Shown here piece by piece: positions 3,480-50,881 of a DNA stretch of 64,000 nt (positions are counted from its first letter, which is position 1; every line of letters starts with the position of its first letter). The position numbers and the translations under genes are program-made. The notes below the pieces were generated by a model. That model was not told the DNA's origin. It worked only from the letters and a program-made list of their open reading frames with translations, and did not search any database. Location: the sequence record MT944117.1; one strand, written 5' to 3'. The DNA comes from Escherichia phage PNJ1809-36.

Positions 3480-3836
3480 ATGAAAAAACTAATCTTAGCC
3501 ACATTGCTGGCTACCGTAAGCTTCACCACTTACGCTCAAAAATTTGTAGCAGTTAAAACGGATATTGGTAAAGATGTTGTGATCACAGGCAACAAATTTT
3601 ACTATACACCTGGGAATGGTGTTCTAGAAGAGTGCCAAGATGTTGAGGCATATACAGGAAAAGAAGATAACACGGAACGTCCTTTTTATTCGATTATAGC
3701 TACTTGCAAAAATGAAATAGTAGCTATTAAACAATACAAAGATGCCCCTGGAGGAGAGTACTTGTTAGTCAAGAATATTAAGAGTGAAAAAACTGCAAAG
3801 TTTACAGTAATTATTTTAAAAGGAGAAACGTTCTAA
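3480..3836 (+). CDS. secreted small protein with N-terminal signal peptide
   Basis: SD AGGAGGG + ATG 3480; MKKLILATLLATVSFTTYAQ signal-like N-terminus. Confidence 0.65.
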   Translation: MKKLILATLLATVSFTTYAQKFVAVKTDIGKDVVITGNKFYYTPGNGVLEECQDVEAYTGKEDNTERPFYSIIATCKNEIVAIKQYKDAPGGEYLLVKNIKSEKTAKFTVIILKGETF

Positions 3837-4975
3837 TGAAATACACTATTTTTGGAGATGTAGCTGTTGTAAATAAGGAATATGGCGTTGAAGCTAATAA
3901 ACTTCCTGCTGGAGTTTGGGTTGTCAACTGCGATCCGCACGGTAACTACTCTTTAGTGCGTGGCGAAAGTTTCTCTCTTCCGAACACTCTTTATGGGGAA
4001 ACTAAAGATCGCGCCGCACATGTTATTAAAACATTTGCTCGTCGTAGTAAAGAAGGTAAAAATACTGGGGTGTTACTGACAGGGACAAAAGGCAGTGGTA
4101 AGACGATGTTAGCTAAACTGATTAGCATGTCTCTAATGTCCACAGAAGGTTTAGGTATTCCAACCATTTTGGTTACACAGCCTTACACAGATGCTGGATT
4201 CTTAGAATTTATGAGTAAAATTACAGATCGTGCTGTTGTTTTATTTGACGAATTTGATAAAGTGTATGCTAAGAAAGAAGATCAGGAAGCACTGTTGACC
4301 TTGTTGGATGGAACAGGAAGTGGGAATAAACTTTACATCCTCACTAAAAATAGTGGTTATATCTCGGAATATTTTGTAAACCGTCCTAGTCGTATCTACT
4401 ACAGTTTCAATTACGATAAACTGTCTAGTGAAACTATGTTAGATTACTTGGATAAGAACTTGGTAAATAAAAAACACGTAGATAACTTCCAACGTTTATG
4501 GGATGTTAGCACAGAGTTGTCTTTCGATGTTATTCAAGGCATTGTAGAAGAATTGAATTTCTATCCAAAAATGACTTTTAAAGAATGTCTTGAAATGATG
4601 GGTATTTCTTTAGGCAATGATGCTAAATGGAATGTGGTTTCTATTGTAGCTAATGGCAAAACCTTGAAGGTGAATTGGATCAATAACTGGCACGACTTTA
4701 CCCCTACTAAGTTTTTGTCGGGTGCTTGTTCCTTGAACATCTATCTACAAAGCTTGAAAGATGATGAAGTGGAAGCAATGGAAACCAATAGTTATGTTAT
4801 CCTAGACGAAGATGGCGACCCACATATTGATCTATGTGCAACTGCTGATGGTCTAACTTGTGATCTGATTGAAGGTGGTAAGATCCTGGTGATGAGCACT
4901 ACACCAGGAAACACTCTGCGAGTGGTGCTGGAGCCTGTAACGCAGCGATCTACCACACTGGGTAGCGTATTCTGA
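3836..4975 (+). CDS. AAA+ family ATPase
   Basis: Walker A GTKGSGKT, Walker B VVLFDEFD, sensor ILTKN; 379 aa. Confidence 0.75.
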   Translation: MKYTIFGDVAVVNKEYGVEANKLPAGVWVVNCDPHGNYSLVRGESFSLPNTLYGETKDRAAHVIKTFARRSKEGKNTGVLLTGTKGSGKTMLAKLISMSLMSTEGLGIPTILVTQPYTDAGFLEFMSKITDRAVVLFDEFDKVYAKKEDQEALLTLLDGTGSGNKLYILTKNSGYISEYFVNRPSRIYYSFNYDKLSSETMLDYLDKNLVNKKHVDNFQRLWDVSTELSFDVIQGIVEELNFYPKMTFKECLEMMGISLGNDAKWNVVSIVANGKTLKVNWINNWHDFTPTKFLSGACSLNIYLQSLKDDEVEAMETNSYVILDEDGDPHIDLCATADGLTCDLIEGGKILVMSTTPGNTLRVVLEPVTQRSTTLGSVF

Positions 4976-5044: not shown

Positions 5045-6052
5045 TTGTTAGATATGCCAGTAAAGAAGAGTATTGAAACATATATGGAAGAATGTAAGCC
5101 GATAGCTGAGGCTAAAGGGATTACCATTCTCGGCACGTATGGAGAAGATAAAGGTGTGCATACGAAGATGATCAATCGTTGTGAGCATGGTCATGAATGG
5201 AATACTACAACGTTTCACAGTTTTAAAGATGGTCGAGGTTGTCCTAAGTGCGCCTACAGGGAACGTTCGAAAAAGAGAAGCAAAGCTATCACTATTCCAG
5301 ACCAGCAACACATACAAGATTTTATGAAGGTAGGTAAATTTAAGGAAGGCACTATTTTCACCAATACAGGAGAACGTAAAGGGTGTGATATAGTATGGAT
5401 GGTTGAATGTCCTGTTTGCTCTCATGATGAATATGTGGAAGCTGGGGTGTGTGATGGTAAATTCTATGCTACCGGAAGTCATCTTAAACGTGGGTGTCTC
5501 CCTTGCCGCTGTTCTACAAGTTACAAATACACAGAGGATCAGACCACCTATAGAACAAGAAAGGAAGTAGAAAGGAGAGGATATATATGGGTAGGATGGA
5601 TCGGTAAACCTTCAACAATGGGTAAGTTTAAATATGGATGTAAGGAGCACGGGGAACAGATAGGGCGTGCAGATGGTTTGCTACATAAGGGGAGTGGGTG
5701 TCCGCAGTGCGGGGGCCAAAACCAACAACAATGTTACATTAATCATATTTATGATGAAGATGGTATTCTTTGTGCACTGAAGTTTGGTATTGCCAATAGT
5801 AGTGATCGCCGTATCAAAGAACAGAATAGCCGCAATGTGTTTACTATGAGACAAGTTCAAGTGTGGCAGTTCCCCACTGTGAAGCAGTGCAAAAATTCAG
5901 AAAAGTATTGCAAAAAGGTGTTAGACACAGAAGCAGTGAGCAAATATGCTATGCCAGACGGCTACACAGAAACAGTGGAGCTATCTTGTCTGGCATCAAT
6001 ACAAAACATTTATAAACTTTATGGTGGAATATTACAGGAGGAAACATGTTAG
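5045..6052 (+). CDS. T5orf172/GIY-YIG-like domain protein with Cys-rich N-terminal repeats (homing-endonuclease-like)
   Basis: three GCPxC-type repeats; C-terminal KFGIANSSDRRIKEQNS resembles T5orf172 core; start may be TTG 5045 or ATG 5054. Confidence 0.55.
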   Translation: MLDMPVKKSIETYMEECKPIAEAKGITILGTYGEDKGVHTKMINRCEHGHEWNTTTFHSFKDGRGCPKCAYRERSKKRSKAITIPDQQHIQDFMKVGKFKEGTIFTNTGERKGCDIVWMVECPVCSHDEYVEAGVCDGKFYATGSHLKRGCLPCRCSTSYKYTEDQTTYRTRKEVERRGYIWVGWIGKPSTMGKFKYGCKEHGEQIGRADGLLHKGSGCPQCGGQNQQQCYINHIYDEDGILCALKFGIANSSDRRIKEQNSRNVFTMRQVQVWQFPTVKQCKNSEKYCKKVLDTEAVSKYAMPDGYTETVELSCLASIQNIYKLYGGILQEETC

Positions 6053-6424: not shown

Positions 6425-6613
6425 ATGGCACGTTTAGCAGATAACCCTGTATTCTACCCCGTTCTTGATCTTTATGATGAATTGACATATGTTGTGGAGC
6501 GGTATAATTACAATGAAGACCTCTTGGAGACAAACCTTAAAGTAGTTCTGATGAAAGCCTATCAGCAAGGGCAACGTGAAATTTTGGAGAGTATGAAAAA
6601 TGCGAATAACTGA
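6425..6613 (+). CDS. hypothetical protein (62 aa)
   Basis: ATG 6425 after SD AAAGGAG. Confidence 0.5.
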   Translation: MARLADNPVFYPVLDLYDELTYVVERYNYNEDLLETNLKVVLMKAYQQGQREILESMKNANN

Positions 6614-7142
6614 TGATTATGTATTCTTCTTTTCACATAAAGATGTTTTTAGTAATTGGTATATTGCACCCTTTACAGAAACCGAACCAAGTTACAATCA
6701 GACATTTAATTGTGTCGAACAATACATGATGTGGCGTAAAGCTTTGCTTTTTAATGATCACAACACTGCACAGGCTATTCTGACTCATAGCTTAAAACGA
6801 GAAGATGAGAAGATACAAGCTTATTACAAACGTATGGGTAGGGCAGTAGCAGGTTTCGATAACAAAATATGGGAAGAGAATCGTGAGCGTATTGTTATGC
6901 GAGGTTTATGCTTGAAGTATGTACAGAATCCAGACTTGTATGCCGATTTACGTCTATATCAATACAAAACATTTGTTGAAGCAAGTCCTTACGATAAGGT
7001 ATACGGAATTGGAATGGGGATGTATGAACCAGGGGTGCTAAACCCTGCCACCTGGAAAGGGCAGAATCTTTTAGGCAAATATCATAACAAACTGATCGAA
7101 ATACTTTTCCCAGACAAAATACCGCAAAGACGATATTTGTGA
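6600..7142 (+). CDS. NADAR-domain (YbiA/DUF1768-like) protein
   Basis: FSNWYIAPF, EQYMMWRKALLF, RMGRAV...W..NRE..VMRG...KY, YGIGMG...G.NLLGK blocks match the YbiA-family pattern. Confidence 0.75.
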   Translation: MRITDDYVFFFSHKDVFSNWYIAPFTETEPSYNQTFNCVEQYMMWRKALLFNDHNTAQAILTHSLKREDEKIQAYYKRMGRAVAGFDNKIWEENRERIVMRGLCLKYVQNPDLYADLRLYQYKTFVEASPYDKVYGIGMGMYEPGVLNPATWKGQNLLGKYHNKLIEILFPDKIPQRRYL

Positions 7143-30748: not shown

Positions 30749-30777
30749 TTGACAAGTGTTTATTCGTTTTGTAAAGT
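30749..30777 (+). promoter_or_regulatory. sigma70-type promoter upstream of recombinase gene
   Basis: TTGACA 30749-30754, 17-nt spacer, TAAAGT 30772-30777. Confidence 0.55.
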
Positions 30778-30806
30778 GGGAATACAGCAATGGTTTAGGA
30801 GTGGTT

Positions 30807-31478
30807 ATGAAAAAGTTTGTTGTTTACAGTCGTCTTTCTAAACAGAAAAAAGGTGAGGCACAATATGGTATGGAGAGCCAAGAGAATGATATCCGTTACT
30901 TCTTAGACTCTGTGCCTGATGCGGAAGTTATTGGTCAATTTTCTGAATACTATTCGGGTAAGGGCGATTGGAAGCAACGTAAGGAACTGGTTAAAGCGGT
31001 TGAAATGTGTAAAGCTACCGGAGCAACTTTATTGGTAGCTAAAGTTGACCGCTTGGGTCGTAACAACGCCTCTGTAGCAACTCTTCTAGAGATGATCGAT
31101 GTTAAGATAGCCATCATGCCAGACGCAGATAAAATGGTTATACAGCTTCTGTCTGTTCTGGCTGAACAAGAAGTTAGAGGTATTGCTGATCGTATTAAAA
31201 AGGGTCTTGCTGTAGCAAAAAGCAAAGGTGTTTTATTAGGCAGTGCTAATCCTAAAACTGCCGCTGCACGTAGAAAAGGGAAAATGGAATACAACTCTGT
31301 TAAAGCAGACGCTTTTGCAGAGACATTCCGTGAACGCTTGGAGATCCTTAGAGATTTAAATACACCTTACAAAACTATTGCTGAAAAATTCAATAGTAAG
31401 AAAATAGCAACAGCACGTGGTGGTAAATGGGATGCTAAAACTGTTTCTCGTTTGTGTGCCAGACTGAACATTAAATAG
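30807..31478 (+). CDS. serine recombinase (resolvase/invertase family)
   Basis: VVYSRLSKQ (catalytic Ser region), LLVAKVDRLGRN, QLLSVLAEQEVRGIADRIKKGL match resolvase catalytic domain; C-terminal HTH-like tail; ATG 30807 after GGAGTGG. Confidence 0.8.
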   Translation: MKKFVVYSRLSKQKKGEAQYGMESQENDIRYFLDSVPDAEVIGQFSEYYSGKGDWKQRKELVKAVEMCKATGATLLVAKVDRLGRNNASVATLLEMIDVKIAIMPDADKMVIQLLSVLAEQEVRGIADRIKKGLAVAKSKGVLLGSANPKTAAARRKGKMEYNSVKADAFAETFRERLEILRDLNTPYKTIAEKFNSKKIATARGGKWDAKTVSRLCARLNIK

Positions 31479-31486
31479 GAGAGGAT

Positions 31487-31909
31487 ATGAAACAAGAAAA
31501 TGAATCTGTAGATCACTTAATCATGCTGTCAGCCCTTTTTGCCGGATGGGACGTATTTTTTGAAAATTTGTTCAATTCTTCTACAGATGGTTCCGATTTT
31601 ATGCGCCAGTTTAAACGACGAACTGTTGAGGACTATGCTTTCTATTCAGGTCGGATTGAAAAAGGTTACGAAGATACAAATACAACACTCACCATTAAAG
31701 TTTTAGATGTGATGTTTAGTGTTATAGATGCTATCGACGAAAGTCTTCCGATCCTAGACAATTGTAATACGAAAGCCTATGTTTACAAAATAGCTCGTGC
31801 TTATGTGTCTGCAAACAGTTGTCTTCTTTCCACCCAGATTGCCGTGAACAATCTTGCCAACTTGTTTGATGAAGGAGAAACTTTTTATGACAATCGATTT
31901 GAAGTGTAA
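31487..31909 (+). CDS. hypothetical protein (140 aa)
   Basis: SD AATAGGAGAGG. Confidence 0.65.
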   Translation: MKQENESVDHLIMLSALFAGWDVFFENLFNSSTDGSDFMRQFKRRTVEDYAFYSGRIEKGYEDTNTTLTIKVLDVMFSVIDAIDESLPILDNCNTKAYVYKIARAYVSANSCLLSTQIAVNNLANLFDEGETFYDNRFEV

Positions 31910-32252
31910 GAGGATTCTTTTAGATTTCTATAATAATTGGTTAGAACACCTCCGTCTCTTTCCAAGAGAAAGTGGTTACGCTGATGTTGGCTTATGCCGA
32001 GGTCTGCGTATGTATATAAGTGATGAATTTCGGGCAGAGCATTCTTTAGCATATTCTGTTTATGGTATGCAATTAGCCAGTTTTGAAAACGCTGGCTTAG
32101 ATACAACTTTCCCATTTAACACAGCAAAATCTTTTGATCAAGAGTGTAAGGAAAAACGTTGCATGTTTAATGAAAAACGTGTACAGTGGGTTAAGGATCG
32201 AGTTAAACAACTGGAACAAGAGTTGGATTTCTTCTATGATGAGGCAGAATAA
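31887..32252 (+). CDS. paralog family member 5 (GLC...PF...WVKDR family)
   Basis: ATG 31887 after GAAGGAGAAA; FYNNWLEHL..VGLCRGL...FPFN...KRVQWVKDR. Confidence 0.6.
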   Translation: MTIDLKCKRILLDFYNNWLEHLRLFPRESGYADVGLCRGLRMYISDEFRAEHSLAYSVYGMQLASFENAGLDTTFPFNTAKSFDQECKEKRCMFNEKRVQWVKDRVKQLEQELDFFYDEAE

Positions 32253-32528: not shown

Positions 32529-33140
32529 ATGATTCAATGCACTCATATCCAAATTACTTGGAGAGATGAACTTTACCATTTGGGACAATTTACTGTAGGG
32601 GAAACATACCCTGTCATTAAACATAATCCTAACATCGCAAACTTTGATAGGATGGTTCTTGTTGAGGACGATCTGGGTCAAACTTATTCTTTAGATCTAA
32701 AATATCCGTTTTCTTACGGCTACGATTGGATCGTTACTTTTGAAGACGTGGAGGAAAATAAAACAATGAACGAAAAAAATTCTTGGTATTATCGTTGTGA
32801 ACTGCCGCCAGTAGGTGAAAAGGTTATCTTTGTTCCTGATTTGGAAAGATATTCTTGGGACAGTTCTTATTCTATTCCTAAAGAAGGCACCGAAGTTGAA
32901 GTTATTGCACATCGCACAACTTCGCATGGTAACGATGTAGCAGTTGTTTTCTGGGATGATGAAGGCGCTGCTTGTGCAGGTGGCTTTGTTGCAGGTAATT
33001 TTGAACCCCTGCCAGATCCTTTGAAGGAGGCAATTTTAGGCGTAGCTTCTTTTGGACTCTCTTACACATCTGCACAAGAGATCGTAGAAGGTATTTTAAA
33101 CGGTACCGTTCCAAACGAAATTTTTAAACAGATTAAATAA
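32529..33140 (+). CDS. hypothetical protein (203 aa)
   Basis: SD GGGGGTG. Confidence 0.65.
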   Translation: MIQCTHIQITWRDELYHLGQFTVGETYPVIKHNPNIANFDRMVLVEDDLGQTYSLDLKYPFSYGYDWIVTFEDVEENKTMNEKNSWYYRCELPPVGEKVIFVPDLERYSWDSSYSIPKEGTEVEVIAHRTTSHGNDVAVVFWDDEGAACAGGFVAGNFEPLPDPLKEAILGVASFGLSYTSAQEIVEGILNGTVPNEIFKQIK

Positions 33141-35297: not shown

Positions 35298-35495
35298 ATG
35301 GCGAAAATGTTAGCAATTGATGATGTTGTAACAATTACTACGTCCATACCTTGTCCTCCTATGCCTTGCCCCTATTGTGGTGGTTCAGGGTATGTTATGG
35401 CGGATGTAGGTCAAATCTACGAGTGTAATCCGTGCAAAACCACGGGTTATATCCAAATAGAATCAGAGGAGAAACACTATGAGCCAAAACGCTAA
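35298..35495 (+). CDS. small Cys-rich protein (65 aa)
   Basis: CPPMPCPYCGG...CNPC; ATG 35298. Confidence 0.55.
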   Translation: MAKMLAIDDVVTITTSIPCPPMPCPYCGGSGYVMADVGQIYECNPCKTTGYIQIESEEKHYEPKR

Positions 35496-35928
35496 AGAAA
35501 AAGAAGTAATCACGGTAATCCGTCAGATGGAAGGTGCCGAAAACAATGCTTTTGTTACTAAGATTCTTCTTAATATCTTTGAAGATGTTATTTTAAACAA
35601 TCCTGGTCATAAAGATTATCAGTATGATGTTATGATGGGTGCTTTGCTTGAGATTAACAAAAACACTTTTGCTGAATATGAGCAACACATGCTTTTACCA
35701 GAGGAAGATCAGGATTATTTGTTATCTGGTGCTTTAAGTGCACAAGAAAATTTCTACCACGTTCTTAATATGGCTTATGCAGATGAACTTGCTGTCTCCC
35801 TTGAAGAGCGGATTCAAATGGTTCGTGACGTAATGAATGAACAAATCCAAGAAGTTGAAGATCTGGTAGCAGAGCCTTTAGCAGAAATTCGTGCAGCTAT
35901 TGAAAAACAAAAAGGAACTCAATCATGA
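35479..35928 (+). CDS. hypothetical protein (149 aa)
   Basis: SD CAGAGGAGAAA. Confidence 0.65.
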   Translation: MSQNAKEKEVITVIRQMEGAENNAFVTKILLNIFEDVILNNPGHKDYQYDVMMGALLEINKNTFAEYEQHMLLPEEDQDYLLSGALSAQENFYHVLNMAYADELAVSLEERIQMVRDVMNEQIQEVEDLVAEPLAEIRAAIEKQKGTQS

Positions 35929-36360: not shown

Positions 36361-36969
36361 ATGGAAGAGAAGATTTGGGATGGTAAAGATCCTTTAGAAG
36401 TTGGACACGTAGCACGTGTCAAAAAATCTACTACAGGTCCTGGTTTTTCTGGTTTGTATCATATACCAGAAGAAGGTCAGCACGTTACAATTTTGGCTCG
36501 TGACAAACAAAACGGAGCAACGCCTGTGTGGATTGTTCGCTGGTATGACAAAGATCTTAACATTTGCTTGTCACCTATTATGGCTCATTTGCTGGAAGCC
36601 CCTTGCTCTGAAGAAGCTCTAATTTTTGTTTCGGCTTTTCAGAAAGCCACAGGTTTAACATTAGATGCAAAAGATGTGCAAAAAGCATTTGACATTATTC
36701 AGGAAGACAACGATACTACATCTAACGACGAACTGGTTGAAGTTACAATCTTATCTTCAGCAGATATCCGAGAGATTGATAATTGTGATTTTCCAATCAC
36801 ATTTAAAATGTCGCAGAAAGACATGCAGTCATCTGGAAGTTGTTTTGGTATACCTCGTTGGTTTTTTGATTCTATCAAAAATTCTACTACAGAGGGATCA
36901 GACTATGATCAAGATGACATGCTTTGGTTCTTAAAAAACCGAGAGATTGTTCTCTCACCACTTAAATAA
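36361..36969 (+). CDS. hypothetical protein (202 aa)
   Basis: SD AGGAGG. Confidence 0.7.
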   Translation: MEEKIWDGKDPLEVGHVARVKKSTTGPGFSGLYHIPEEGQHVTILARDKQNGATPVWIVRWYDKDLNICLSPIMAHLLEAPCSEEALIFVSAFQKATGLTLDAKDVQKAFDIIQEDNDTTSNDELVEVTILSSADIREIDNCDFPITFKMSQKDMQSSGSCFGIPRWFFDSIKNSTTEGSDYDQDDMLWFLKNREIVLSPLK

Positions 36970-37318: not shown

Positions 37319-37600
37319 ATGGAACTCGTTCAAGAATTGTATAATGCTTTAGGAGCAAAAGGAAAAGATTGGCCCGAACATGCGCTTATTGCTATAAGAG
37401 ACTCCGATGGTGAGATTAAGTTTTCAAGCGTAAGTAAAGAGCACATCGTAGAAACAAAACTGGGTATTTACATGCGTGGAACTTATTGCTTATTCAACAC
37501 CAGAATGGTAGAAGCTCCTGTTATTGAAAATGGGACAAAAGATTGCCCCACAATCGTAACAAAAGCTGAATATGAGAAGTTTTTCTACGCTAAGGCTTGA
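37319..37600 (+). CDS. hypothetical protein (93 aa)
   Basis: SD AAGGAGG. Confidence 0.65.
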   Translation: MELVQELYNALGAKGKDWPEHALIAIRDSDGEIKFSSVSKEHIVETKLGIYMRGTYCLFNTRMVEAPVIENGTKDCPTIVTKAEYEKFFYAKA

Positions 37601-37965: not shown

Positions 37966-37995
37966 AAGGCACCCACTTGGGTGCCTTTGTTTTAT
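37966..37995. terminator. bidirectional terminator at convergence of plus and minus blocks
   Basis: GGCACCCA-CTT-TGGGTGCC flanked by A-run upstream and T-run downstream. Confidence 0.7.
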
Positions 37996-38264
37996 TCTTC
38001 GTTAGATTGCGTCTCAGACGCGTTAAATTCGGTTTCAGTACAACTTGCTAGGTAACTTATATTTTGCATCACTACAACTACAGGTGTTTGAAGTTTATCT
38101 TCTAGCCCCGCAGCCACTTGAGCCAAGGCATTATCAATATTTGATTTCCTAACGCCTGTTCCATGTCCTGTTGCCAAGTAAAGATTACCTTCCCCTTTTT
38201 GTGTAGCATTAGCAAAGTAGTAAACGTAATGTGCAAGGTAGTAATCACGGATTTCTTCAGTCAT
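37992..38264 (-). CDS. hypothetical protein (90 aa)
   Basis: ORF; last gene of minus-strand block. Confidence 0.6.
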   Translation of the reverse strand: MTEEIRDYYLAHYVYYFANATQKGEGNLYLATGHGTGVRKSNIDNALAQVAAGLEDKLQTPVVVVMQNISYLASCTETEFNASETQSNEE

Positions 38265-38281: not shown

Positions 38282-38300
38282 AAAGGGGCCGAAGCCCCTT
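38282..38300 (-). terminator. UUCG-tetraloop hairpin (partial terminator or mRNA stabiliser)
   Basis: minus strand GGGGC-TTCG-GCCCC followed by TTTCTTATT. Confidence 0.5.
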
Positions 38301-38307
38301 GAGTGGT

Positions 38308-39108
38308 TTATTTGTTTAAGTGGTCTTCGACCATTTTAATGAAACCTTCATTGCTGAAGGCTGTTGCAGCTTTTTCTCGGTAAACAAAAACTCCACGATC
38401 TTCATAGAGAAGTGTTTCTTCGTAATTAACTCCAGGGTTAACTACAACCATTTTTGTCCCGATATTAAGAGCAGGAAAAAGCTCCCAGTTAAAATTGATA
38501 ACTTGATTAGAGCAACCCACTACAATCACCATATCTTGAGCCGTCAAGCCGTCTAAGATGTGGTACATATCGTTATACAATGGGGCAGTCTCCCCAAAGA
38601 ACACTACATTGGGCTTCACATACTTGTAATCATCCACATCGATAGCAGCATAGCCAACATCTTTGATGATTCTATTGTCTACGATCACTTCAGGCAGGAA
38701 GCCGTGAACATGTAGAACATCTTCATGAACAACACCCGCTTGTTCCAGAAGATCATCTACGTTTGTCGTGATGTTGATAACACGATCACAGCCGTACTCT
38801 TGAAACCATTCCGCGATCTGGTAATGCGCAGCGTTAGGAGACACACTATCCATCTCTACGCGACGTTTATTGTAGAAGTCATGAGTTTTACGGTAGAGGT
38901 TGTATCCCTCTGCATCTAATCCACCAACAGCGCCAGGAACACACTGTTCTTGCTGGTAGCCAGCACGGAAATTGAAAATGTCACACACTTCAGAAAGGTC
39001 GTATTCATCCCACAAAGCTTTACCACTTTCTGTGTCAGTGCGGAAAGTACGAATACCGCTATCGGCGCTTAAGCCAGCGCCGCTAATCACTATTAATCGT
39101 CTTGGCAT
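38308..39108 (-). CDS. Sir2-family (sirtuin-like) NAD-dependent protein
   Basis: GAGLSADSGIRTFR, TTNVDDL, HVHG, VVFFGE, GCS motifs; no CxxC zinc-ribbon pairs; SD GAGGAGG. Confidence 0.8.
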   Translation of the reverse strand: MPRRLIVISGAGLSADSGIRTFRTDTESGKALWDEYDLSEVCDIFNFRAGYQQEQCVPGAVGGLDAEGYNLYRKTHDFYNKRRVEMDSVSPNAAHYQIAEWFQEYGCDRVINITTNVDDLLEQAGVVHEDVLHVHGFLPEVIVDNRIIKDVGYAAIDVDDYKYVKPNVVFFGETAPLYNDMYHILDGLTAQDMVIVVGCSNQVINFNWELFPALNIGTKMVVVNPGVNYEETLLYEDRGVFVYREKAATAFSNEGFIKMVEDHLNK

Positions 39109-39578
39109 TCTTCCTCCTCAAATGGATCATAAGAATCGTACTCGTAAGTATCATCTTCTGAAAATTCTACTTCGAAATAAATATCAAACTCTGCAAACAG
39201 ACGTAGGATGTTAGACATGCTGTAATAATTATCGCAGGCAGATTCAGCTTCATAGTAAACATAAAGCAAATGGTTAGCCTTATCATCTTCCAAATATTTC
39301 CCGTCTGCATACGCATAGTCTGCATATGCTTTACCTGCATCTTCCACAAGAGAACGATCAAGCAGAGTAGGAAATGGTTTCTCTTTTTCTTTTAGTTTGC
39401 TCACCAACCAATGTGCAATATCATTCCATTCTGCATCCATACCACTAAAGCAACTTGCTTCTTCTCCAAAAGAAGCTTCTCCTAAATCGCCACTAATACG
39501 AACAACATTAGATGAACTATAGCCACACGTTTCACAATCAGAGTAACTATTATGCACATTGACATTTACTTGAAACAT
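39093..39578 (-). CDS. hypothetical acidic protein (161 aa)
   Basis: SD AGGAGGG; Asp/Glu/Tyr-rich; overlaps Sir2-like start by 16 nt. Confidence 0.65.
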   Translation of the reverse strand: MFQVNVNVHNSYSDCETCGYSSSNVVRISGDLGEASFGEEASCFSGMDAEWNDIAHWLVSKLKEKEKPFPTLLDRSLVEDAGKAYADYAYADGKYLEDDKANHLLYVYYEAESACDNYYSMSNILRLFAEFDIYFEVEFSEDDTYEYDSYDPFEEEECQDD

Positions 39579-39596
39579 ATTCCCTCCTATAAAAGA

Positions 39597-39627
39597 AAAG
39601 CCCCCTGAAACAGGAGGCTTTGTTCAG
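39597..39627 (-). terminator. putative terminator hairpin
   Basis: minus strand GCCTCCTG-TTTC-CAGGGGGC followed by TTTTCTTTT. Confidence 0.45.
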
Positions 39628-39636
39628 ATATCTGCA

Positions 39637-40290
39637 CTATACCAGACTTTGAAGGTATTTGTCAAGTGCTTCTTGATCACCTTGACAAACATAGCAACGG
39701 AAGTCTTGAGCAGAAGGTTCTTTGTCCTCGTCCCAATCCCAATAGACAGTACCTTTATAGCGTGAGCCTGGGAACTCGAAGTATGCCACATGAGTAATAT
39801 GGTGTGGGCCACCCCAAAACTCTGTAAAAGTAAATTGAGGATACGCTGCTTTAACTGTATTTTCAAACCAAGTTTTACGATCTAATGCTTCGTTTATAAA
39901 ATAAGCATGGCGTTCCATTTCATCCCACGTTTTCCAGACACTTCTCTCATCAGGAGAAAAGACAAGCCATTCTGGAAGGTAGAGAGTGTCATAGTAATCA
40001 TCATATTCGATCTCGGAGACGCACGAAGCTGACTCCTCCAGTTTTGAGTAATCAAAAGCAGAATATACCCACCAACCATCTTCCAGTAACGCTTTGATAG
40101 GGACGAAGCCTTTATCAGCATATTGATCGAATTGTTTGACACGGTGGCTTGTGCAGTCTTCAAACTCACATTCTAAACGATATGCACCTTTTCGACGAGC
40201 CTCAAGACCGTGTGCACTGAAAATAACAACACTTCCTTCACCATCATTACGATCTACTTGATAAGCAACTACTTGTTTTGAATTTGACAT
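39637..40290 (-). CDS. hypothetical protein (217 aa)
   Basis: SD AAGGAG; TAATG overlap with upstream gene. Confidence 0.7.
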   Translation of the reverse strand: MSNSKQVVAYQVDRNDGEGSVVIFSAHGLEARRKGAYRLECEFEDCTSHRVKQFDQYADKGFVPIKALLEDGWWVYSAFDYSKLEESASCVSEIEYDDYYDTLYLPEWLVFSPDERSVWKTWDEMERHAYFINEALDRKTWFENTVKAAYPQFTFTEFWGGPHHITHVAYFEFPGSRYKGTVYWDWDEDKEPSAQDFRCYVCQGDQEALDKYLQSLV

Positions 40291-40973
40291 TATTTCTCCT
40301 TATCTAGAAGATTGTTAGACAAAAACACTGCACGAGCAAAACCACGTGCGGTTAAGGATCTAAGTTGTTTTGTTTTTGCACTAGCTCCACCTAAGCTTTT
40401 CCAACCCCAGAAGCAGCCTATATGATCTACTGGTTTCTTCACTGGTTGAACAAAACCATTGCCGTGCCAAATACAAGTTTTCTTTGTATACCCATCACGG
40501 GTAGGCATTTTAGGATGAAAGCTTCCTTCCTCTTCAAACAAATACCCACCATACTCATAAGGATCAAAGTAAAAATCGGGTTTACGCCATAAGGTTGAAA
40601 GTTTACCTACTGGGTTCTCAATCATCCAAGGAACATTATATTTGTTACCCAAAGATTCCACTACACGAATATTAGCTAAAGCTTCATCTAGTTCCTCTGT
40701 GCTACGTTCGTGTTTGCTACCACTACCTGCTAACATAGTGCAAGGTGGAAATCCAAAAATAATATCGGGTTTAGGTATCCCATGATCTTCAGGGTTGAAT
40801 GTAGAATCTATCCAGGCATTCACATAGGTTATGTTTGGGTGCTCCATCCTAACCTCGTATTTACCGTGATCCCCTTCATCAGCGTTTACACAAAAACACT
40901 TGTGACCTGCTTCGGCATAACGTAACACCATAATCCCAGATCCGTCAAACATAGACAAAACTGTTTTACTCAT
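40290..40973 (-). CDS. minimal C5-cytosine methyltransferase-like protein
   Basis: motif I SMFDGSG, motif IV GFPPC, motif VI ENPVG in canonical order and spacing; only 227 aa; ATG 40973 after GGAGGGG. Confidence 0.55.
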   Translation of the reverse strand: MSKTVLSMFDGSGIMVLRYAEAGHKCFCVNADEGDHGKYEVRMEHPNITYVNAWIDSTFNPEDHGIPKPDIIFGFPPCTMLAGSGSKHERSTEELDEALANIRVVESLGNKYNVPWMIENPVGKLSTLWRKPDFYFDPYEYGGYLFEEEGSFHPKMPTRDGYTKKTCIWHGNGFVQPVKKPVDHIGCFWGWKSLGGASAKTKQLRSLTARGFARAVFLSNNLLDKEK

Positions 40974-41361
40974 TACCCCTCCATTCAAGACAAGCCATAA
41001 CTTTACGCCAATCACTTTCTGTAAGAAAAATCTCGTTTGCTTTCTTCCACAAATCTAAATCGTGAAGGGTTGGAATACGATATGTTAGTTCACAGAATCT
41101 ATGCTCTTCTTCTGTAATATAACCAAAATGCAGAGCCACATCGTGAAACCAACACCAACCATGCATCTCTCGAACAACATGGTCATGCTGAGACATTGTT
41201 TTATGCCGTAAACCTAACCAACAAGGAACAGATACTTTAGTAGTCTTTAATCTGTGATCAACAGTATTAGAGTATTCAATAATAGCTGTCAGTTTCAATC
41301 GTGCTTTTTCTAAATCCTCATGGGTCACTTTGAAATAACTTTCTGAAAGATATCCACACAT
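40966..41361 (-). CDS. hypothetical protein (131 aa)
   Basis: ATG 41361 after AAGGAGG; listed 41379 start is TTG. Confidence 0.6.
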   Translation of the reverse strand: MCGYLSESYFKVTHEDLEKARLKLTAIIEYSNTVDHRLKTTKVSVPCWLGLRHKTMSQHDHVVREMHGWCWFHDVALHFGYITEEEHRFCELTYRIPTLHDLDLWKKANEIFLTESDWRKVMACLEWRGNE

Positions 41362-41362
41362 A

Positions 41363-42304
41363 TTAATAACCTCCTTCAAAACGCTTAACTACATGTTGAT
41401 TAGCTTTAAAACGTTCAACATAGTCGTTTTCGCCCATGTTTTCATATAGCTTAGTAACAACATAAAAGTTTTCCCAAGCATATTCCCTAAACCAACCACT
41501 AGTGATGGATGTGCAGACTTTAGATAAAGCCATTATAAAACTTTGCTTAGGGGTTGGACCTCCGATCTCTTCACCGAAAGGAATTTGTGAACGTTCCAAA
41601 GCCAAAACACACGCTTCTTCATAAACACCTAACAGGCGCACATGTTTTGGTTGAGCAAAAAACTTTTCTTTGCTGGTCATAACTTCACTTCCATCTTTCA
41701 TATAAGATTTATATGCTGGAGCATCCATTAACGCGATTGCTTCATGGATAGAATCATGATCATAAACATACGGAACCTCGTCACCTTTAAAGAAGTCTTT
41801 ACTTTTTACGTTTAAGTTCGGATGAGAGTAAGTGTATGTTTCTTTCTCACGTAACTCATAAATACTCTTAAGATTTTCTGGGATCTTTGCGCCCAGTGAC
41901 CGCATGAAATGAATATCTTTCATAGTTTTAAAGAAGTGAGGACTATCCTTTTTAAAACGATGACTCATTTTAAGAAGGTAGAGCACATCTAAAGGAGCAA
42001 CAACATGTCCAGCGTAAGTTCGACGAACATCATCAGAATCTTCACAATAACTAATCAAAGCTTCTGTGCTATCTCCTTGAGAAGCAATATCATATTCCAA
42101 ATGTGCACCAGCTATCATTTTGACGTGGCCTTTGTTCCCTTTACGTTCTACAAGTTCAACAAACTCGTCTTGAGAGAACATTTTTGATAATTCTTCCCAC
42201 TCTTGTTCTGTACACAGGTAATCTAAATCTACACAAGGGCGATACAAGTCTTTTCCCATGTCCATAGCATGAATTTGTAATGCACGGCTACCAATTAACA
42301 CCAT
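41363..42304 (-). CDS. hypothetical protein (313 aa), possible nucleotidyltransferase-like N-terminus
   Basis: SD AGAGGAG; IGSRAL...VDLDY resembles a GS...DxD NTase motif with atypical spacing. Confidence 0.7.
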   Translation of the reverse strand: MVLIGSRALQIHAMDMGKDLYRPCVDLDYLCTEQEWEELSKMFSQDEFVELVERKGNKGHVKMIAGAHLEYDIASQGDSTEALISYCEDSDDVRRTYAGHVVAPLDVLYLLKMSHRFKKDSPHFFKTMKDIHFMRSLGAKIPENLKSIYELREKETYTYSHPNLNVKSKDFFKGDEVPYVYDHDSIHEAIALMDAPAYKSYMKDGSEVMTSKEKFFAQPKHVRLLGVYEEACVLALERSQIPFGEEIGGPTPKQSFIMALSKVCTSITSGWFREYAWENFYVVTKLYENMGENDYVERFKANQHVVKRFEGGY

Positions 42305-49584: not shown

Positions 49585-50343
49585 TTAAATAAACACTTCA
49601 GTAATCAGTTTAGACAAACGTCCACGTTTATTATCGTCCGTTGTCAGTTCAACGTATCCAATAAAATCTACAATTGGCTCACGAACACCTTCTTCATTTT
49701 CTGGATATAAAAGTTCCAAAATTTGATGCAGACCATTGCTACGTTTTTTAATTGCATATGTCTGGCGAACATCGCCTAATACAATAACATGCGTATTAAT
49801 ACCTGCACGTTCAATAAGAAGTTTAAGTGTTTCTGTTGACATAAGTTGTGCTTCGTCAATAATGACGATTGTATTATCCAGGGTGGCCCCCAACAAATAG
49901 TTAGGAATATTCAATTCGATCTTACCTGATCCAATATCGTTTTCCAATTTGTTGGCTGTCATGAATTGCTGGAAAATACGTTTTGTAGATTCATAGTGTG
50001 CTGCTAGTTTATCTGTTTTATCTCCAGACAAGAAACCAATCTGGTCATCTCCGACTTCAGTAGGGTTCTTGATAAAAAGTAGTTTACGGAAGTCTCCTGA
50101 ACGAAGCATCTGCAAAGCTTTCCATAAAGCAACAGAGGTTTTACCAGTCCCTGCCGGAGCATTTACAACAGTCAGATCATTCCAAATCATGCTTTGAACA
50201 ATCTTATTTTGGTCCCCTTCAGGCATAAATTCATCTAAACGGTAATCGTCATTACCTACCGCTTTTGCTGCATAACGGCTTTCAATCTTTGCTGAATTAG
50301 CCAGTTTCTGCCGTTGTGTTTTAGCTGCGGTTTTATTTCCCAT
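49585..50343 (-). CDS. phoH: PhoH-like ATPase
   Basis: Walker A APAGTGKT; PhoH-like body; ATG 50343 after AAGGAG. Confidence 0.85.
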   Translation of the reverse strand: MGNKTAAKTQRQKLANSAKIESRYAAKAVGNDDYRLDEFMPEGDQNKIVQSMIWNDLTVVNAPAGTGKTSVALWKALQMLRSGDFRKLLFIKNPTEVGDDQIGFLSGDKTDKLAAHYESTKRIFQQFMTANKLENDIGSGKIELNIPNYLLGATLDNTIVIIDEAQLMSTETLKLLIERAGINTHVIVLGDVRQTYAIKKRSNGLHQILELLYPENEEGVREPIVDFIGYVELTTDDNKRGRLSKLITEVFI

Positions 50344-50360
50344 AGTAGCACTCCTTTTAG

Positions 50361-50378
50361 AAGGGGCCGAAGCCCCTT
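50361..50378 (-). other. intercistronic UUCG-tetraloop hairpin without T-run
   Basis: minus strand GGGGC-TTCG-GCCCC between lysozyme stop and phoH SD. Confidence 0.5.
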
Positions 50379-50380
50379 TA

Positions 50381-50881
50381 TTAGTTGTAAGCATCTAAAG
50401 TTCCAGAAGTCAGAACTTTAATTACTCGTTCAGCACGGTTTGGCGTCTGGCTATACCATCGGCTTTTACGCATGTTTTTACCTGCTTGAGTATAATATGC
50501 ATTGCTGATTAAAGTCAAGCTATTTTGAAACCCTTCAGCACCTTTTAACCCCAACTGGAAAACCATGTTGATTATTCCCAATTTACGAGTATCACTAACC
50601 TTATCATAGATTGGTGATAAGATAGCACTGTTTTTTATGTCTCTCTTCACTTTTGCAACATCGTCAGCAAAGATTTGACGGGCTTCTTTTTCTGTGATAA
50701 CTCCATTAGTCTTACGACCAAGAAGATTATCTAAGATTTGAATAGCCTTTGCTTTATCTTTTATTTTAGTCAGAAGGTGTCCTATGCCGACTGTCCAATA
50801 ACCAAGATGGTCTTGATAAACAGTAAGCTTCAGTCCTTCATCGACTCGTAGCATATCAAACTCATCTACTACTTTAGCCAT
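50381..50881 (-). CDS. T4-type lysozyme (endolysin, muramidase)
   Basis: MLRVDEGLKLTVYQDHLGYWTVGIGHLL closely parallels T4 lysozyme N-terminus incl. catalytic Glu/Asp/Thr region. Confidence 0.9.
   Translation of the reverse strand: MAKVVDEFDMLRVDEGLKLTVYQDHLGYWTVGIGHLLTKIKDKAKAIQILDNLLGRKTNGVITEKEARQIFADDVAKVKRDIKNSAILSPIYDKVSDTRKLGIINMVFQLGLKGAEGFQNSLTLISNAYYTQAGKNMRKSRWYSQTPNRAERVIKVLTSGTLDAYN

What the first reader, a model, noticed from the sequence alone, without database searches (positions are those of the whole stretch)
38308..39578. Sir2-like protein without zinc ribbon, overlapping an acidic partner gene
The ORF has the sirtuin NAD-binding and catalytic motifs but lacks the four-Cys zinc module. 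Its start overlaps by 16 nt the end of a highly acidic Tyr/Asp/Glu-rich protein, suggesting co-translation. Zinc-less sirtuin-like enzymes can act as ADP-ribosyltransferases or NADases, so this pair could modify host proteins or manipulate NAD+. With NADAR and the DUF2829 gene, the window carries three NAD/ADP-ribose-related functions.
Basis: partly seen in the sequence, partly recalled or inferred. Interest (0 to 1): 0.7.

Follow-up and report, generated by a model that had tools for sequence, protein, structure and literature searches.

The report
Zinc-less phage sirtuin with acidic neighbour
This is a real two-gene early operon of an E. coli phage: a small, very acidic protein of unknown function followed by a sirtuin of an already annotated phage family that never has the zinc module. 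It is a fairly ordinary find, because the enzyme's target is untested and the acidic protein is a lineage-specific neighbour rather than a proven subunit.

Summary
On the minus strand, a 161-aa acidic protein (39093-39578; pI 4.05) overlaps by 16 nt a 266-aa Sir2-family protein (38308-39108). The Sir2 protein keeps GAGxS, N116/D118 and catalytic His135 and has no zinc-binding cysteines.

The window is a Phapecoctavirus, 99.9% identical to phage vB_EcoM_ASO2A, where the gene is already annotated "Sir2-like". It belongs to a phage sirtuin clade (PHROG 2162) found in 979 phage records. No aligned member has zinc ligands, a feature already noted in 2016 for Vibrio phage homologues.

Sequence and predicted fold are closest to the class III deacylases CobB and SIRT5, not to defence NADases. 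The class III anion pocket is invariant (C42/Y79/R82).

Orthologues in rV5-like and T5-like phages sit beside RNA-repair genes. This fits a 2022 prediction of KptA-like RNA 2'-phosphate removal. Here that module lies about 30 kb away.

The acidic protein has no known fold and belongs to a tiny family. It shares a promoter-to-terminator unit with Sir2 in two genera. However, its slot is empty or holds another gene in related phages, and its alleles reassort freely with Sir2 alleles.

NADAR is confirmed in the window; DUF2829 is not. Verdict: a new member of a known kind, of moderate interest.

The parts
39636..39665 (-). Sigma-70-type promoter-like site TTGACA-18-TATAGT (11/12 matches, TG-extended -10), inside the 3' end of the upstream gene
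   Evidence: phi92 has a 12/12 promoter in the same position.
39597..39621 (-). G+C-rich hairpin plus U-tract. It is the terminator of the upstream unit. Because it lies downstream of the promoter, it is also a stem-loop in the 5' UTR of the partner-Sir2 mRNA.
   Evidence: Annotated as a terminator in ASO2A. Same order in phi92.
39582..39588 (-). Shine-Dalgarno AGGAGGG of the acidic-protein gene
   Evidence: read from the sequence.
39093..39578 (-). Acidic protein gene (161 aa, phrog_9509): pI 4.05. Predicted fold is an N-terminal beta-hairpin, four helices and one strand, followed by a disordered acidic tail.
   Evidence: No hit in Pfam, NCBIfam or PADLOC. No structural neighbour.
39522..39536 (-). 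Invariant C15-E-T-C18-G at the hairpin turn of the acidic protein. With invariant C43 it makes a possible Cys3 metal site (inference).
   Evidence: Alignment A4 of 25 sequences. Hairpin strands 2-15 and 19-30 in the model.
39096..39161 (-). Acidic Asp/Glu/Tyr tail, residues 140-161 (12 acidic, 0 basic). Residues 146-161 are predicted disordered. The tail is also present in family members that have no Sir2 downstream.
39111..39119 (-). Shine-Dalgarno GAGGAGGAA of the Sir2 gene, embedded in the partner's Glu codons
38308..39108 (-). Sir2-family gene (266 aa) of the zinc-less phage sirtuin clade PHROG 2162 / pVOG1363
39067..39081 (-). G10-A-G-L-S14 NAD+ pyrophosphate-binding motif
   Evidence: G10, A11, G12 and S14 invariant.
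38863..38874 (-). Y79-N-K-R82, the class III sirtuin YxxR anion-binding motif. It aligns with CobB Y92/R95. C42 aligns with CobB A76.
   Evidence: Invariant in the clade.
38755..38769 (-). T114-T-N116-V-D118, equivalent to the canonical TQNID motif. Asn and Asp are kept; Gln is replaced by an invariant Thr.
38704..38706 (-). Codon of His135, aligned with the catalytic His of CobB (HMHG)
38617..38703 (-). Residues 136-164: a short cysteine-free beta-hairpin segment in place of the zinc ribbon. It is one of the most variable blocks of the clade.
38283..38300 (-). Intrinsic terminator-like hairpin closing the two-gene unit
   Evidence: Annotated in ASO2A. Equivalent site in phi92.

Best explanation
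SHOWN: the locus is a self-contained early two-gene transcription unit of a Phapecoctavirus, ordered promoter, 5' hairpin, acidic protein, sirtuin, terminator. The sirtuin belongs to a phage-specific clade descended from class III (CobB/SIRT5-like) sirtuins. The clade lost the zinc ribbon. It kept every core NAD+-binding and catalytic residue and the class III anion-binding pocket (C42 at the Ala position, Y79, R82).

INFERRED MECHANISM: the enzyme performs ordinary sirtuin chemistry. An oxygen of an anionic group on the substrate attacks C1' of NAD+ and nicotinamide leaves. His135 then activates the ribose 2'-OH, and the group leaves attached to ADP-ribose.

MOST LIKELY SUBSTRATE (inferred from gene context in orthologues, following Iyer et al. 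2022): a 2'-phosphate left on RNA repaired after cleavage by host nucleases. This would be a KptA/Tpt1-like step yielding ADP-ribose 1''-2'' cyclic phosphate. The second candidate is an acidic acyl-lysine.

THE ACIDIC PROTEIN: a lineage-specific accessory gene that is co-transcribed and translationally coupled. It may be a regulator or a nucleic-acid-mimicking modulator (inference). It is not a universal or obligatory subunit.
For: Operon
- Promoter 11/12 plus flanking hairpins.
- The same architecture occurs in phi92, where the partner is only 37% identical.
- The partner is directly upstream of Sir2 in 10 of 10 Stephanstirmvirinae-type loci held; one later contig of this type, L030, lacks it.

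Clade
- 979 phage records carry a homologue.
- Invariant GAGxS, FR, TNVD, H135-G, FFxE and GxS; no Cys in the zinc region in 36 sequences.

Class III ancestry and pocket
- CobB is the best PDB hit by sequence (E 3e-24) and by fold (E 5e-17, TM 0.85), followed by Sir2Af1 and SIRT5.
- FYNKRR aligns with CobB FYNARR.
- C42 aligns with the CobB position mutated in the A76G entries.

RNA-repair context of orthologues
- rV5-like and PVP-SE1-like phages: Sir2 sits between RNA ligase 1, cREC, a PNK-like kinase, a MazG-like protein, a phosphoesterase and DNA ligase.
- T5-like phages: HAD_SAK_2 is two genes away.
- Of 56 IMG/VR loci with Sir2 at 47% identity or more, 27 have HAD_SAK_2 within 529 nt and 13 have the Rnl1/kinase module within about 3 kb.
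- The prediction itself is published in PMC9503650.

Partner family context
- In jumbo-phage contigs it sits beside RNA ligase and NADAR genes.

This lineage still owns the module
- ASO2A and MRostami-2023b carry Rnl1, the kinase, a metallophosphatase and cREC.
Against: - No biochemical data for any member were found in the searchable library.
- In this phage the RNA-repair module is about 30 kb away. The local neighbours are instead a C5-methyltransferase-like protein and unknowns.
- phAPEC8 has lost RNA ligase 1 and the kinase yet keeps Sir2 and the partner.
- The sirtuin is strongly acidic (pI 4.6, net -19), which is unusual for an RNA-binding enzyme.
- The cREC and HAD_SAK families were themselves named from context predictions by the same school, so the context support is partly circular.
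- The contexts come from only about three phage lineages, so the locus counts are not independent.
Confidence: 0.4

Rival explanations
1. The enzyme is a CobB-like protein lysine deacylase (deacetylase or desuccinylase). It resets acylation of host or phage proteins early in infection, and the acidic protein is irrelevant or only a modulator.
For: - The closest sequences and folds are CobB, Sir2Af1 and SIRT5.
- The class III pocket residues, the FGE peptide-binding motif and V168 (CobB V187) are kept.
- This is the annotation used in most records and is argued in silico for Vibrio phage homologues (PMC5107563).
Against: - It falls far below NCBIfam's curated CobB cut-offs (98 against 243 bits; 81 against 320 bits).
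- The zinc ribbon, which forms one wall of the peptide cleft, is gone and its replacement is hypervariable.
- The canonical loop after GTS is replaced by a clade-specific, nearly invariant NQVINFNWELFP.
- Gln of TQNID is replaced by Thr.
- The recurrent RNA-repair neighbourhoods are unexplained by this reading.
Confidence: 0.3
2. One reading: the zinc-less sirtuin is an ADP-ribosyltransferase or NADase that modifies host macromolecules or lowers NAD+. The acidic protein acts as its immunity or inhibitor partner, in the manner of a toxin-antitoxin pair.
For: - The gene order (small acidic gene first, overlapping the enzyme gene) resembles type II toxin-antitoxin pairs.
- Zinc-less SIR2 domains in defence systems are NADases, and some sirtuins ADP-ribosylate (reviewed in PMC9503650).
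- The phage carries other NAD/ADP-ribose-related genes: NADAR and an Acb2/Tad1-like protein.
Against: - PADLOC defence SIR2 models give only a 17.6-bit partial hit.
- All top 50 PDB fold matches are canonical deacylases.
- No macro domain was found among 130 ORFs.
- Most clade members have no such partner.
- One related contig has Sir2 with nothing in the slot, which is hard to reconcile with an essential antitoxin.
- NAD+ depletion would harm a lytic phage (inference).
Confidence: 0.15
3. The adjacency has no functional meaning. The acidic protein is an independent early host-takeover or anti-defence factor, for example a nucleic-acid mimic, that merely occupies a variable slot upstream of Sir2. 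This reading is compatible with any of the enzyme hypotheses above.
For: - The slot between phrog_8514 and Sir2 holds the partner in 5 loci, an unrelated ~90-aa ORF in L065, L070 and L077, and nothing in L030.
- An HNH endonuclease is inserted between the two genes in FKP3, and muut has a ~0.78-kb gap.
- Alleles reassort. Sir2/partner identity to the window is 100/73% in MRostami, 99/85% in phAPEC8, 82/97.5% in nieznany and 71/97% in Ro121lw.
- Jumbo-phage family members are not next to Sir2.
- Gene overlap is commonplace here.
- It is very acidic and lies close to a methyltransferase-like gene.
Against: - A shared promoter-to-terminator unit is conserved across two genera despite 37% partner identity.
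- Both gene families recur near RNA ligase or ADP-ribose-processing genes in other phages.
Confidence: 0.35

Closest known systems
Phage sirtuin clade (PHROG 2162 / pVOG1363; 'Sir2-like protein' of T5, rV5, PVP-SE1, phi92, KVP40-like and Rak2-like phages), predicted by Iyer, Burroughs and Aravind 2022 (PMC9503650) to act in RNA repair
   Same: Full-length profile match (E 6.6e-102). 50-100% identity to annotated members. No zinc ligands, as noted for phiSt2 and KVP40 in PMC5107563. All clade-invariant residues are present.
   Different: Here the gene is not embedded in the RNA-repair cluster, which lies about 30 kb away in the nearest genome. Instead it is preceded by a lineage-specific acidic protein inside its own promoter-to-terminator unit.
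E. coli CobB and human SIRT5 (class III sirtuins; NAD+-dependent deacetylase/desuccinylase)
   Same: Best sequence and fold matches. Shared features: GAGxS, SGIRTFR, catalytic His, FGE, the YxxR anion motif and a small residue at the Ala76/Ala86 position.
   Different: No zinc ribbon. Gln changed to Thr in TQNID. A different loop after GxS. An extra variable insertion at residues 50-70. Scores are far below the curated CobB family cut-offs.
Tpt1/KptA RNA 2'-phosphotransferase
   Same: Only the proposed reaction logic: an NAD+-dependent transfer that removes an anionic group as an ADP-ribose derivative. Like KptA-based systems, the orthologues sit beside RNA ligase and end-healing genes.
   Different: An unrelated fold (Tpt1/KptA belongs to the ADP-ribosyltransferase superfamily, per PMC9503650). 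No sequence similarity. The activity has never been shown for any sirtuin in the library I could search.
Defence-associated SIR2 NADases (ThsA, DSR1/2, SIR2-HerA, SIR2-APAZ)
   Same: SIR2 Rossmann domain without a zinc ribbon, in the setting of phage-host NAD+ conflict.
   Different: Essentially no match to PADLOC models. None of these appears among the top 50 fold matches. It is encoded by a lytic phage and has no sensor or effector partner domain.
Acidic phage early proteins that mimic nucleic acid (Ocr, ArdA, Arn)
   Same: For the partner only: small, very acidic (pI 4.05), transcribed from a sigma-70-type promoter-like site next to a methyltransferase-like gene.
   Different: No sequence or fold similarity. 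It has a conserved CxxC...C motif and a Tyr-rich disordered tail.

Membership tests
Sirtuin / SIR2 superfamily (Pfam PF02146) | Profile match above the curated gathering score | tested here: met
   73.3 bits against a cut-off of 24, E 3e-20.
Sirtuin / SIR2 superfamily (Pfam PF02146) | Rossmann fold with the GAGxS and SGIxxFR NAD+-binding motifs | tested here: met
   G10-A-G-L-S14 and S17-G-I-R-T-F-R23, invariant in the clade. AF2 model pLDDT 89, TM 0.85 to CobB.
Sirtuin / SIR2 superfamily (Pfam PF02146) | Catalytic His in the HG motif, plus Asn and Asp of the xQNxD motif | tested here: met
   H135-G136, N116 and D118 are invariant. The Gln is replaced by an invariant T115.
Sirtuin / SIR2 superfamily (Pfam PF02146) | Cys4 zinc ribbon in the small domain (present in canonical sirtuins) | tested here: not met
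   No Cys between H135 and K165 in this protein or in the 35 relatives aligned with it.
Sirtuin / SIR2 superfamily (Pfam PF02146) | NAD+-dependent catalytic activity | not testable with these tools
   Needs an enzyme assay.
Class III sirtuin / CobB protein deacylase (NCBIfam NF001753, NF040867) | Curated whole-protein score cut-off | tested here: not met
   98.3 against 243 bits and 81.2 against 320 bits.
Class III sirtuin / CobB protein deacylase (NCBIfam NF001753, NF040867) | YxxR motif and a small residue lining the acyl pocket (SIRT5 Ala86/Tyr102/Arg105; CobB A76/Y92/R95) | tested here: met
   C42, Y79 and R82 align to these positions and are invariant. The CobB positions were cross-checked against the mutant names in PDB entry titles.
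Phage sirtuin clade (PHROG 2162), the RNA-repair clade of Iyer et al. 2022 | Full-length match to the clade profile and close identity to named members (T5-like, rV5-like, PVP-SE1) | tested here: met
   E 6.6e-102 over residues 2-266. 50-60% identity to rV5-like, PVP-SE1 and T5-like proteins.
Phage sirtuin clade (PHROG 2162), the RNA-repair clade of Iyer et al. 2022 | Adjacent to RNA ligase, cREC, kinase, HAD or 2H genes | tested here: not met
   None lies within the window. In the nearest genome the module is about 30 kb away. The feature is met in orthologous loci of other phages.
Defence-type SIR2 NADases (PADLOC models) | Match to a defence SIR2 model, or a fused or adjacent sensor/effector (SLOG, HerA, pAgo, TIR) | tested here: not met
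   Best PADLOC hit is 17.6 bits over 38 residues. The neighbours have no such domains.
SirTM-type macro-linked ADP-ribosylating sirtuins | Adjacent or fused macro domain | tested here: not met
   No macro-domain hit among 130 window ORFs or among the immediate neighbours.
Type II toxin-antitoxin-like pair | A small upstream gene overlapping the enzyme gene, always co-inherited with it | tested here: inconclusive
   The overlap and shared operon are present. But Sir2 occurs without the partner in most phages and in the related contig L030. Toxicity is not testable here.
Nucleic-acid-mimic anti-restriction proteins (Ocr/ArdA), for the partner | Sequence or fold similarity to a known mimic | tested here: not met

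The most novel reading that the evidence does not exclude
The acidic protein is a dedicated second subunit of the sirtuin. One version: its conserved Cys3 hairpin (C15, C18, C43) supplies in trans the metal-binding module the enzyme has lost. Another version: its Asp/Glu/Tyr tail occupies the anion pocket as a nucleic-acid-like gate. Together they would form a previously undescribed two-component, NAD+-dependent system that removes 2'-phosphates from, or ADP-ribosylates, damaged RNA to defeat host RNA-cleaving defences.
Probability: 0.1. Interest if true: 0.7.

Novelty: new member of a known kind. Interest (0 to 1): 0.35.

Why it matters
Nearly a thousand sequenced phages, including T5-like and rV5-like therapeutic candidates, carry this zinc-less sirtuin, and I found no report of its activity. 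Showing that a sirtuin removes an RNA 2'-phosphate would add a new reaction class to a heavily studied enzyme family. Showing that it is a deacylase would reveal how phages reset the host acyl-proteome. The window itself adds little that is new about the enzyme. It does add a clean, portable two-gene unit with a small, confidently folded partner of unknown fold. That makes a convenient construct for testing activity with and without the partner.

Tried and rejected
- PADLOC scan of both proteins: nothing meaningful.
- Pfam, NCBIfam and PHROG function for the partner: none.
- Searched for partner homologues next to Sir2 in rV5-, PVP-SE1- and T5-like loci with a family HMM: none.
- Followed 'Atd1', an anti-TIR gene reported in Phapecoctavirus, as a possible identity for either gene. 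It is a MazG-like pyrophosphatase and unrelated.
- Checked whether the gene annotated 'Sir2-like' just downstream in phage Ro121lw (window 37992-38264) is a second sirtuin. It is phrog_15991 of unknown function, so this is a mis-annotation.
- The 'second Sir2' genes of T5-like and rV5-like phages are really HAD_SAK_2 and MazG-like proteins.
- Literature searches for any characterised phage sirtuin: none found.
- Tried to locate the Acb2/Tad1-like ORF with four 10-protein Pfam scans: not found among those 40 ORFs.
- Looked for DUF2829: absent from 130 ORFs.
Full report
**What is there.** The window is a Phapecoctavirus (Stephanstirmvirinae) genome segment. The 2.5 kb around the finding is 99.9% identical to Escherichia phage vB_EcoM_ASO2A and 93% identical to phAPEC8. 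Two minus-strand ORFs match the finding's coordinates exactly: a 161-aa protein (39093-39578) and a 266-aa protein (38308-39108) that overlap by 16 nt. In ASO2A they are annotated 'hypothetical protein' and 'Sir2-like protein'. Both are real genes. The Sir2 ORF matches Pfam SIR2 (73 bits against a cut-off of 24) and PHROG 2162 over its full length (E 6.6e-102). The upstream ORF matches phrog_9509 (E 4e-60).

- The sirtuin has GAGLS (residues 10-14), SGIRTFR (17-23), TTNVD (114-118), HVHG with His135, FGE (171-173), GCS (198-200) and N224-P.
- Its four cysteines are at 42, 56, 107 and 199. None lies between His135 and Lys165, where CobB carries its zinc-binding cysteines.
- The upstream protein has pI 4.05, net charge -28, 24% Asp+Glu and 9% Tyr.
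- The Sir2 ribosome-binding site GAGGAGGAA lies inside the partner's Glu codons.
- The overlap is not special in this genome. In the curated annotation of the neighbourhood, 19 of 45 adjacent pairs overlap, 6 of them by 16 nt or more.

**The transcription unit.**
- More telling than the overlap is the signal layout. A sigma-70-type promoter-like site (TTGACA-18-TATAGT, TG-extended) lies at 39665-39636, a hairpin at 39621-39597, and a second terminator-like hairpin at 38300-38283.
- The two genes therefore form their own unit.
- phi92, in a different genus where the partner is only 37% identical, has the same layout: a 12/12 promoter, a hairpin, the partner, an overlapping Sir2 and a terminator.

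**What kind of sirtuin.**
- tblastn finds homologues in 979 phage records. They include T5-like, rV5-like, PVP-SE1-like and phi92-like phages and Vibrio, Erwinia and Rak2-like jumbo phages.
- In an alignment of 36 diverse members all catalytic motifs are invariant, and no member has a cysteine in the zinc-ribbon region. Zinc loss is therefore a clade property, not a peculiarity of this gene.
- It was already noted for the phiSt2 and KVP40 proteins in 2016 (PMC5107563).
- The best PDB matches by sequence profile are E. coli CobB (E 3e-24), Sir2Af and SIRT5.
- The AlphaFold model (pLDDT 89.4) is closest to CobB (Foldseek E 5e-17, TM 0.85), then Sir2Af1 and SIRT5. No defence NADase SIR2 appears among the top 50 matches listed.
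- PADLOC gives only a 17.6-bit fragment.

**The pocket.**
- The segment F78-Y79-N-K-R82-R83 aligns with CobB FYNARR, which is the class III YxxR motif that binds the carboxylate of succinyl-lysine in SIRT5 and CobB (established knowledge).
- Invariant C42 aligns with CobB Ala76, the small pocket residue. I cross-checked the numbering against the mutant names in the PDB entry titles.

**Departures from CobB.**
- The zinc ribbon is replaced by a short, variable hairpin (residues 136-164).
- Gln is replaced by Thr in TQNID.
- There is a variable insertion at residues 50-70.
- There is a clade-specific, nearly invariant loop NQVINFNWEL (201-210). It is also the least confident part of the model.
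- NCBIfam CobB models score far below their curated cut-offs.

So this is a sirtuin of class III ancestry, but it is not a CobB equivalent.

**Context in other phages.**
- In rV5-like (naam) and PVP-SE1 phages the orthologue (50-59% identity) lies among RNA ligase 1, a cREC cyclic-phosphate-processing domain protein, a PNK-like P-loop kinase, a phosphoesterase, a MazG-like protein and DNA ligase.
- In T5-like phages a HAD_SAK_2 ('Swiss Army Knife RNA repair') protein lies two genes downstream.
- Among 56 IMG/VR loci whose Sir2 is at least 47% identical to this one, 27 have HAD_SAK_2 within 529 nt and 13 have the Rnl1/kinase module within about 3 kb.
- This reproduces the observation behind the published prediction that this clade removes RNA 2'-phosphates in the manner of KptA (PMC9503650).
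- My added point is an inference. An invariant anion-binding YxxR pocket is what such chemistry would need, and the sirtuin mechanism maps step for step onto the Tpt1 reaction.

**Context in this phage.**
- Here the RNA-repair module is not adjacent. ASO2A carries RNA ligase, the kinase-like gene, a metallophosphatase, cREC, DNA ligase and the MazG-like gene at 52-57 kb of its record, about 30 kb from Sir2 and just beyond the window's end.
- phAPEC8 has lost RNA ligase 1 and the kinase but keeps Sir2 and the partner. Retention of Sir2 therefore does not depend on Rnl1.
- The locally conserved block is DUF7275/7277 protein, p137, a C5-methyltransferase-like protein (phrog_757), phrog_8514, a variable slot, then Sir2. 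It occurs in 11 of the 80 IMG/VR loci.

**The acidic protein.**
- Its family is tiny: 31 clusters at 50% identity among 1.84 billion proteins, 25 clusters in the 5.8-billion set and 131 phage records.
- A 25-sequence alignment shows invariant C15-E-x-C18-G, G33, G38, A41 and C43, and an acidic C-terminal tail in nearly all full-length members.
- The AlphaFold model is confident (pLDDT 87.6). It shows a long beta-hairpin with the CxxC at its turn, four helices, one strand and a disordered tail.

*For a functional link with Sir2:*
- The shared unit is conserved in two genera.
- The partner was directly upstream of Sir2 in all 10 Stephanstirmvirinae-type loci examined at that stage.
- In jumbo-phage contigs the family sits in a block DUF5856, partner, unknown, NADAR. 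In one contig it is directly followed by an RNA ligase. That is the same functional theme.

*Against an obligatory link:*
- No homologue lies next to Sir2 in rV5-, PVP-SE1- or T5-like phages.
- The jumbo-phage members are not near Sir2.
- In related contigs the slot holds an unrelated ~90-aa ORF (L065, L070, L077) or nothing (L030).
- An HNH endonuclease separates the two genes in FKP3.
- Alleles reassort. Sir2/partner identities to the window are 100/99% (ASO2A), 100/73% (MRostami), 99/85% (phAPEC8), 82/97.5% (nieznany) and 71/97% (Ro121lw).

**Mechanism, with shown and inferred steps.**
- Shown: an early-type promoter and a closed two-gene unit; an intact sirtuin catalytic core of class III ancestry without zinc; membership of a large phage clade; association of orthologues with RNA-repair genes.
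- Inferred: the enzyme consumes NAD+ to remove an anionic group as an ADP-ribose derivative. I rank RNA 2'-phosphate removal first (about 0.4), protein deacylation second (about 0.3), and ADP-ribosyltransferase or NADase third (about 0.15).
- The partner is most simply a lineage-specific, co-expressed accessory. It could be a regulator or a mimic. It may equally be an independent early factor occupying a variable slot (about 0.35, compatible with any of the enzyme hypotheses).

**Other claims in the finding.** NADAR is present at 6600-7142 (+). DUF2829 was not detected in 130 ORFs. An Acb2/Tad1-hairpin protein was detected but not located.

**Novelty and score.** The gene is already annotated, its clade is known, the zinc loss has been noted and a functional prediction is published. 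What is undescribed in the library I could search is the conserved promoter-to-terminator pairing with an acidic protein of unknown fold, and the invariance of the class III pocket in the clade. I found no experimental characterisation of any member, although subscription journals are not covered. I rate it a new member of a known kind, with interest 0.35.

Noticed in passing
window 6600-7142 (+): NADAR-domain protein (Pfam E 4e-36). It is 39-42% identical to the NADAR genes that sit two genes from partner-family members in jumbo-phage contigs (L023, L026). In this window it lies about 31 kb from Sir2.
   Followed up: partly
window, not located: one of 3836-4975, 5045-6052, 30756-31478, 31854-32252, 32529-33140, 35479-35928, 36361-36969, 37319-37600 (+), or a minus-strand ORF in 42895-63954: One ORF matches Pfam Acb2_Tad1_hairpin (E 1.9e-19), the family of phage sponges for cyclic-nucleotide and gcADPR immune signals. 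Forty other ORFs were scanned and excluded.
   Followed up: partly
window 39597-39665 (-); L004 2854-2920: The strong promoter lies upstream of the hairpin plus U-tract rather than after it. Transcripts of the partner-Sir2 unit would therefore begin with a terminator-like stem-loop about 8 nt from the start. The same order is conserved in phi92. It could be a 5' stabiliser or an attenuator.
   Followed up: partly
window 39637-42304 (-): A gene block is conserved upstream of Sir2 in 11 of 80 IMG/VR Sir2 loci, down to 50% Sir2 identity. It runs DUF7275/DUF7277 protein (41363-42304), p137 (40966-41379), a 241-aa C5-methyltransferase-like protein with FDGSG, FPPC and ENPVG motifs but no Pfam hit (40290-41015), and phrog_8514 (39637-40290, pI 4.6). 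This block is a more persistent neighbour of Sir2 than the acidic partner is.
   Followed up: partly
window 39290-39406 (-), partner residues ~58-96: Nucleotide identity to phage MRostami-2023b is about 99% on both sides but breaks across the central helices of the partner. This is a recombination patch. Two allele types of this segment circulate among Phapecoctavirus (alignment A2), while the N-terminal hairpin and residues 111-140 stay conserved.
   Followed up: partly
outside the window: MZ726793.1 51.8-57.4 kb (L022); NC_020079.1 52-55.4 kb (L018): The RNA-repair-type module (RNA ligase 1, PNK-like kinase, metallophosphatase, cREC, DNA ligase, MazG-like) is present in ASO2A and MRostami-2023b. 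phAPEC8 lacks RNA ligase 1 and the kinase and has a truncated phosphoesterase, so the module is variably present within the genus.
   Followed up: yes
L005 3480-4130 (Klebsiella phage FKP3); phage muut (NC_052657.1) 49995-50773: An HNH homing endonuclease gene is inserted exactly between the partner and Sir2 in FKP3. muut has a ~0.78-kb gap at the same place. Translational coupling of the pair is therefore dispensable.
   Followed up: partly
window 37992-38264 (-): The 90-aa gene downstream of Sir2 (phrog_15991, separated from Sir2 by a terminator) is annotated 'Sir2-like protein' in phage Ro121lw. This looks like an annotation slip, because it has no SIR2 match. Likewise, the 'second Sir2' genes of T5-like and rV5-like phages are HAD_SAK_2 and MazG-like proteins.
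   Followed up: yes
window 38479-38508 (-), Sir2 residues 201-210: The loop NQVINFNWEL is the most conserved block of the whole phage clade (mean identity 0.94) yet has the lowest model confidence (pLDDT below 50 at residues 203-205). It replaces the canonical loop after GTS that lines the substrate cleft, so it is a candidate determinant of substrate specificity.
   Followed up: no
window, other Pfam hits among 130 ORFs (862-1155 is DUF7325; the others were not located): CapR homology domain (E 1.5e-23), Resolvase N-terminal domain (E 7e-18), RNase_H_2, NT5C, DUF7202, DUF7249 and DUF2158. Expected families were also seen: PhoH, calcineurin-like phosphatase, lysozyme, an HslV-like peptidase and glutaredoxin.
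   Followed up: no
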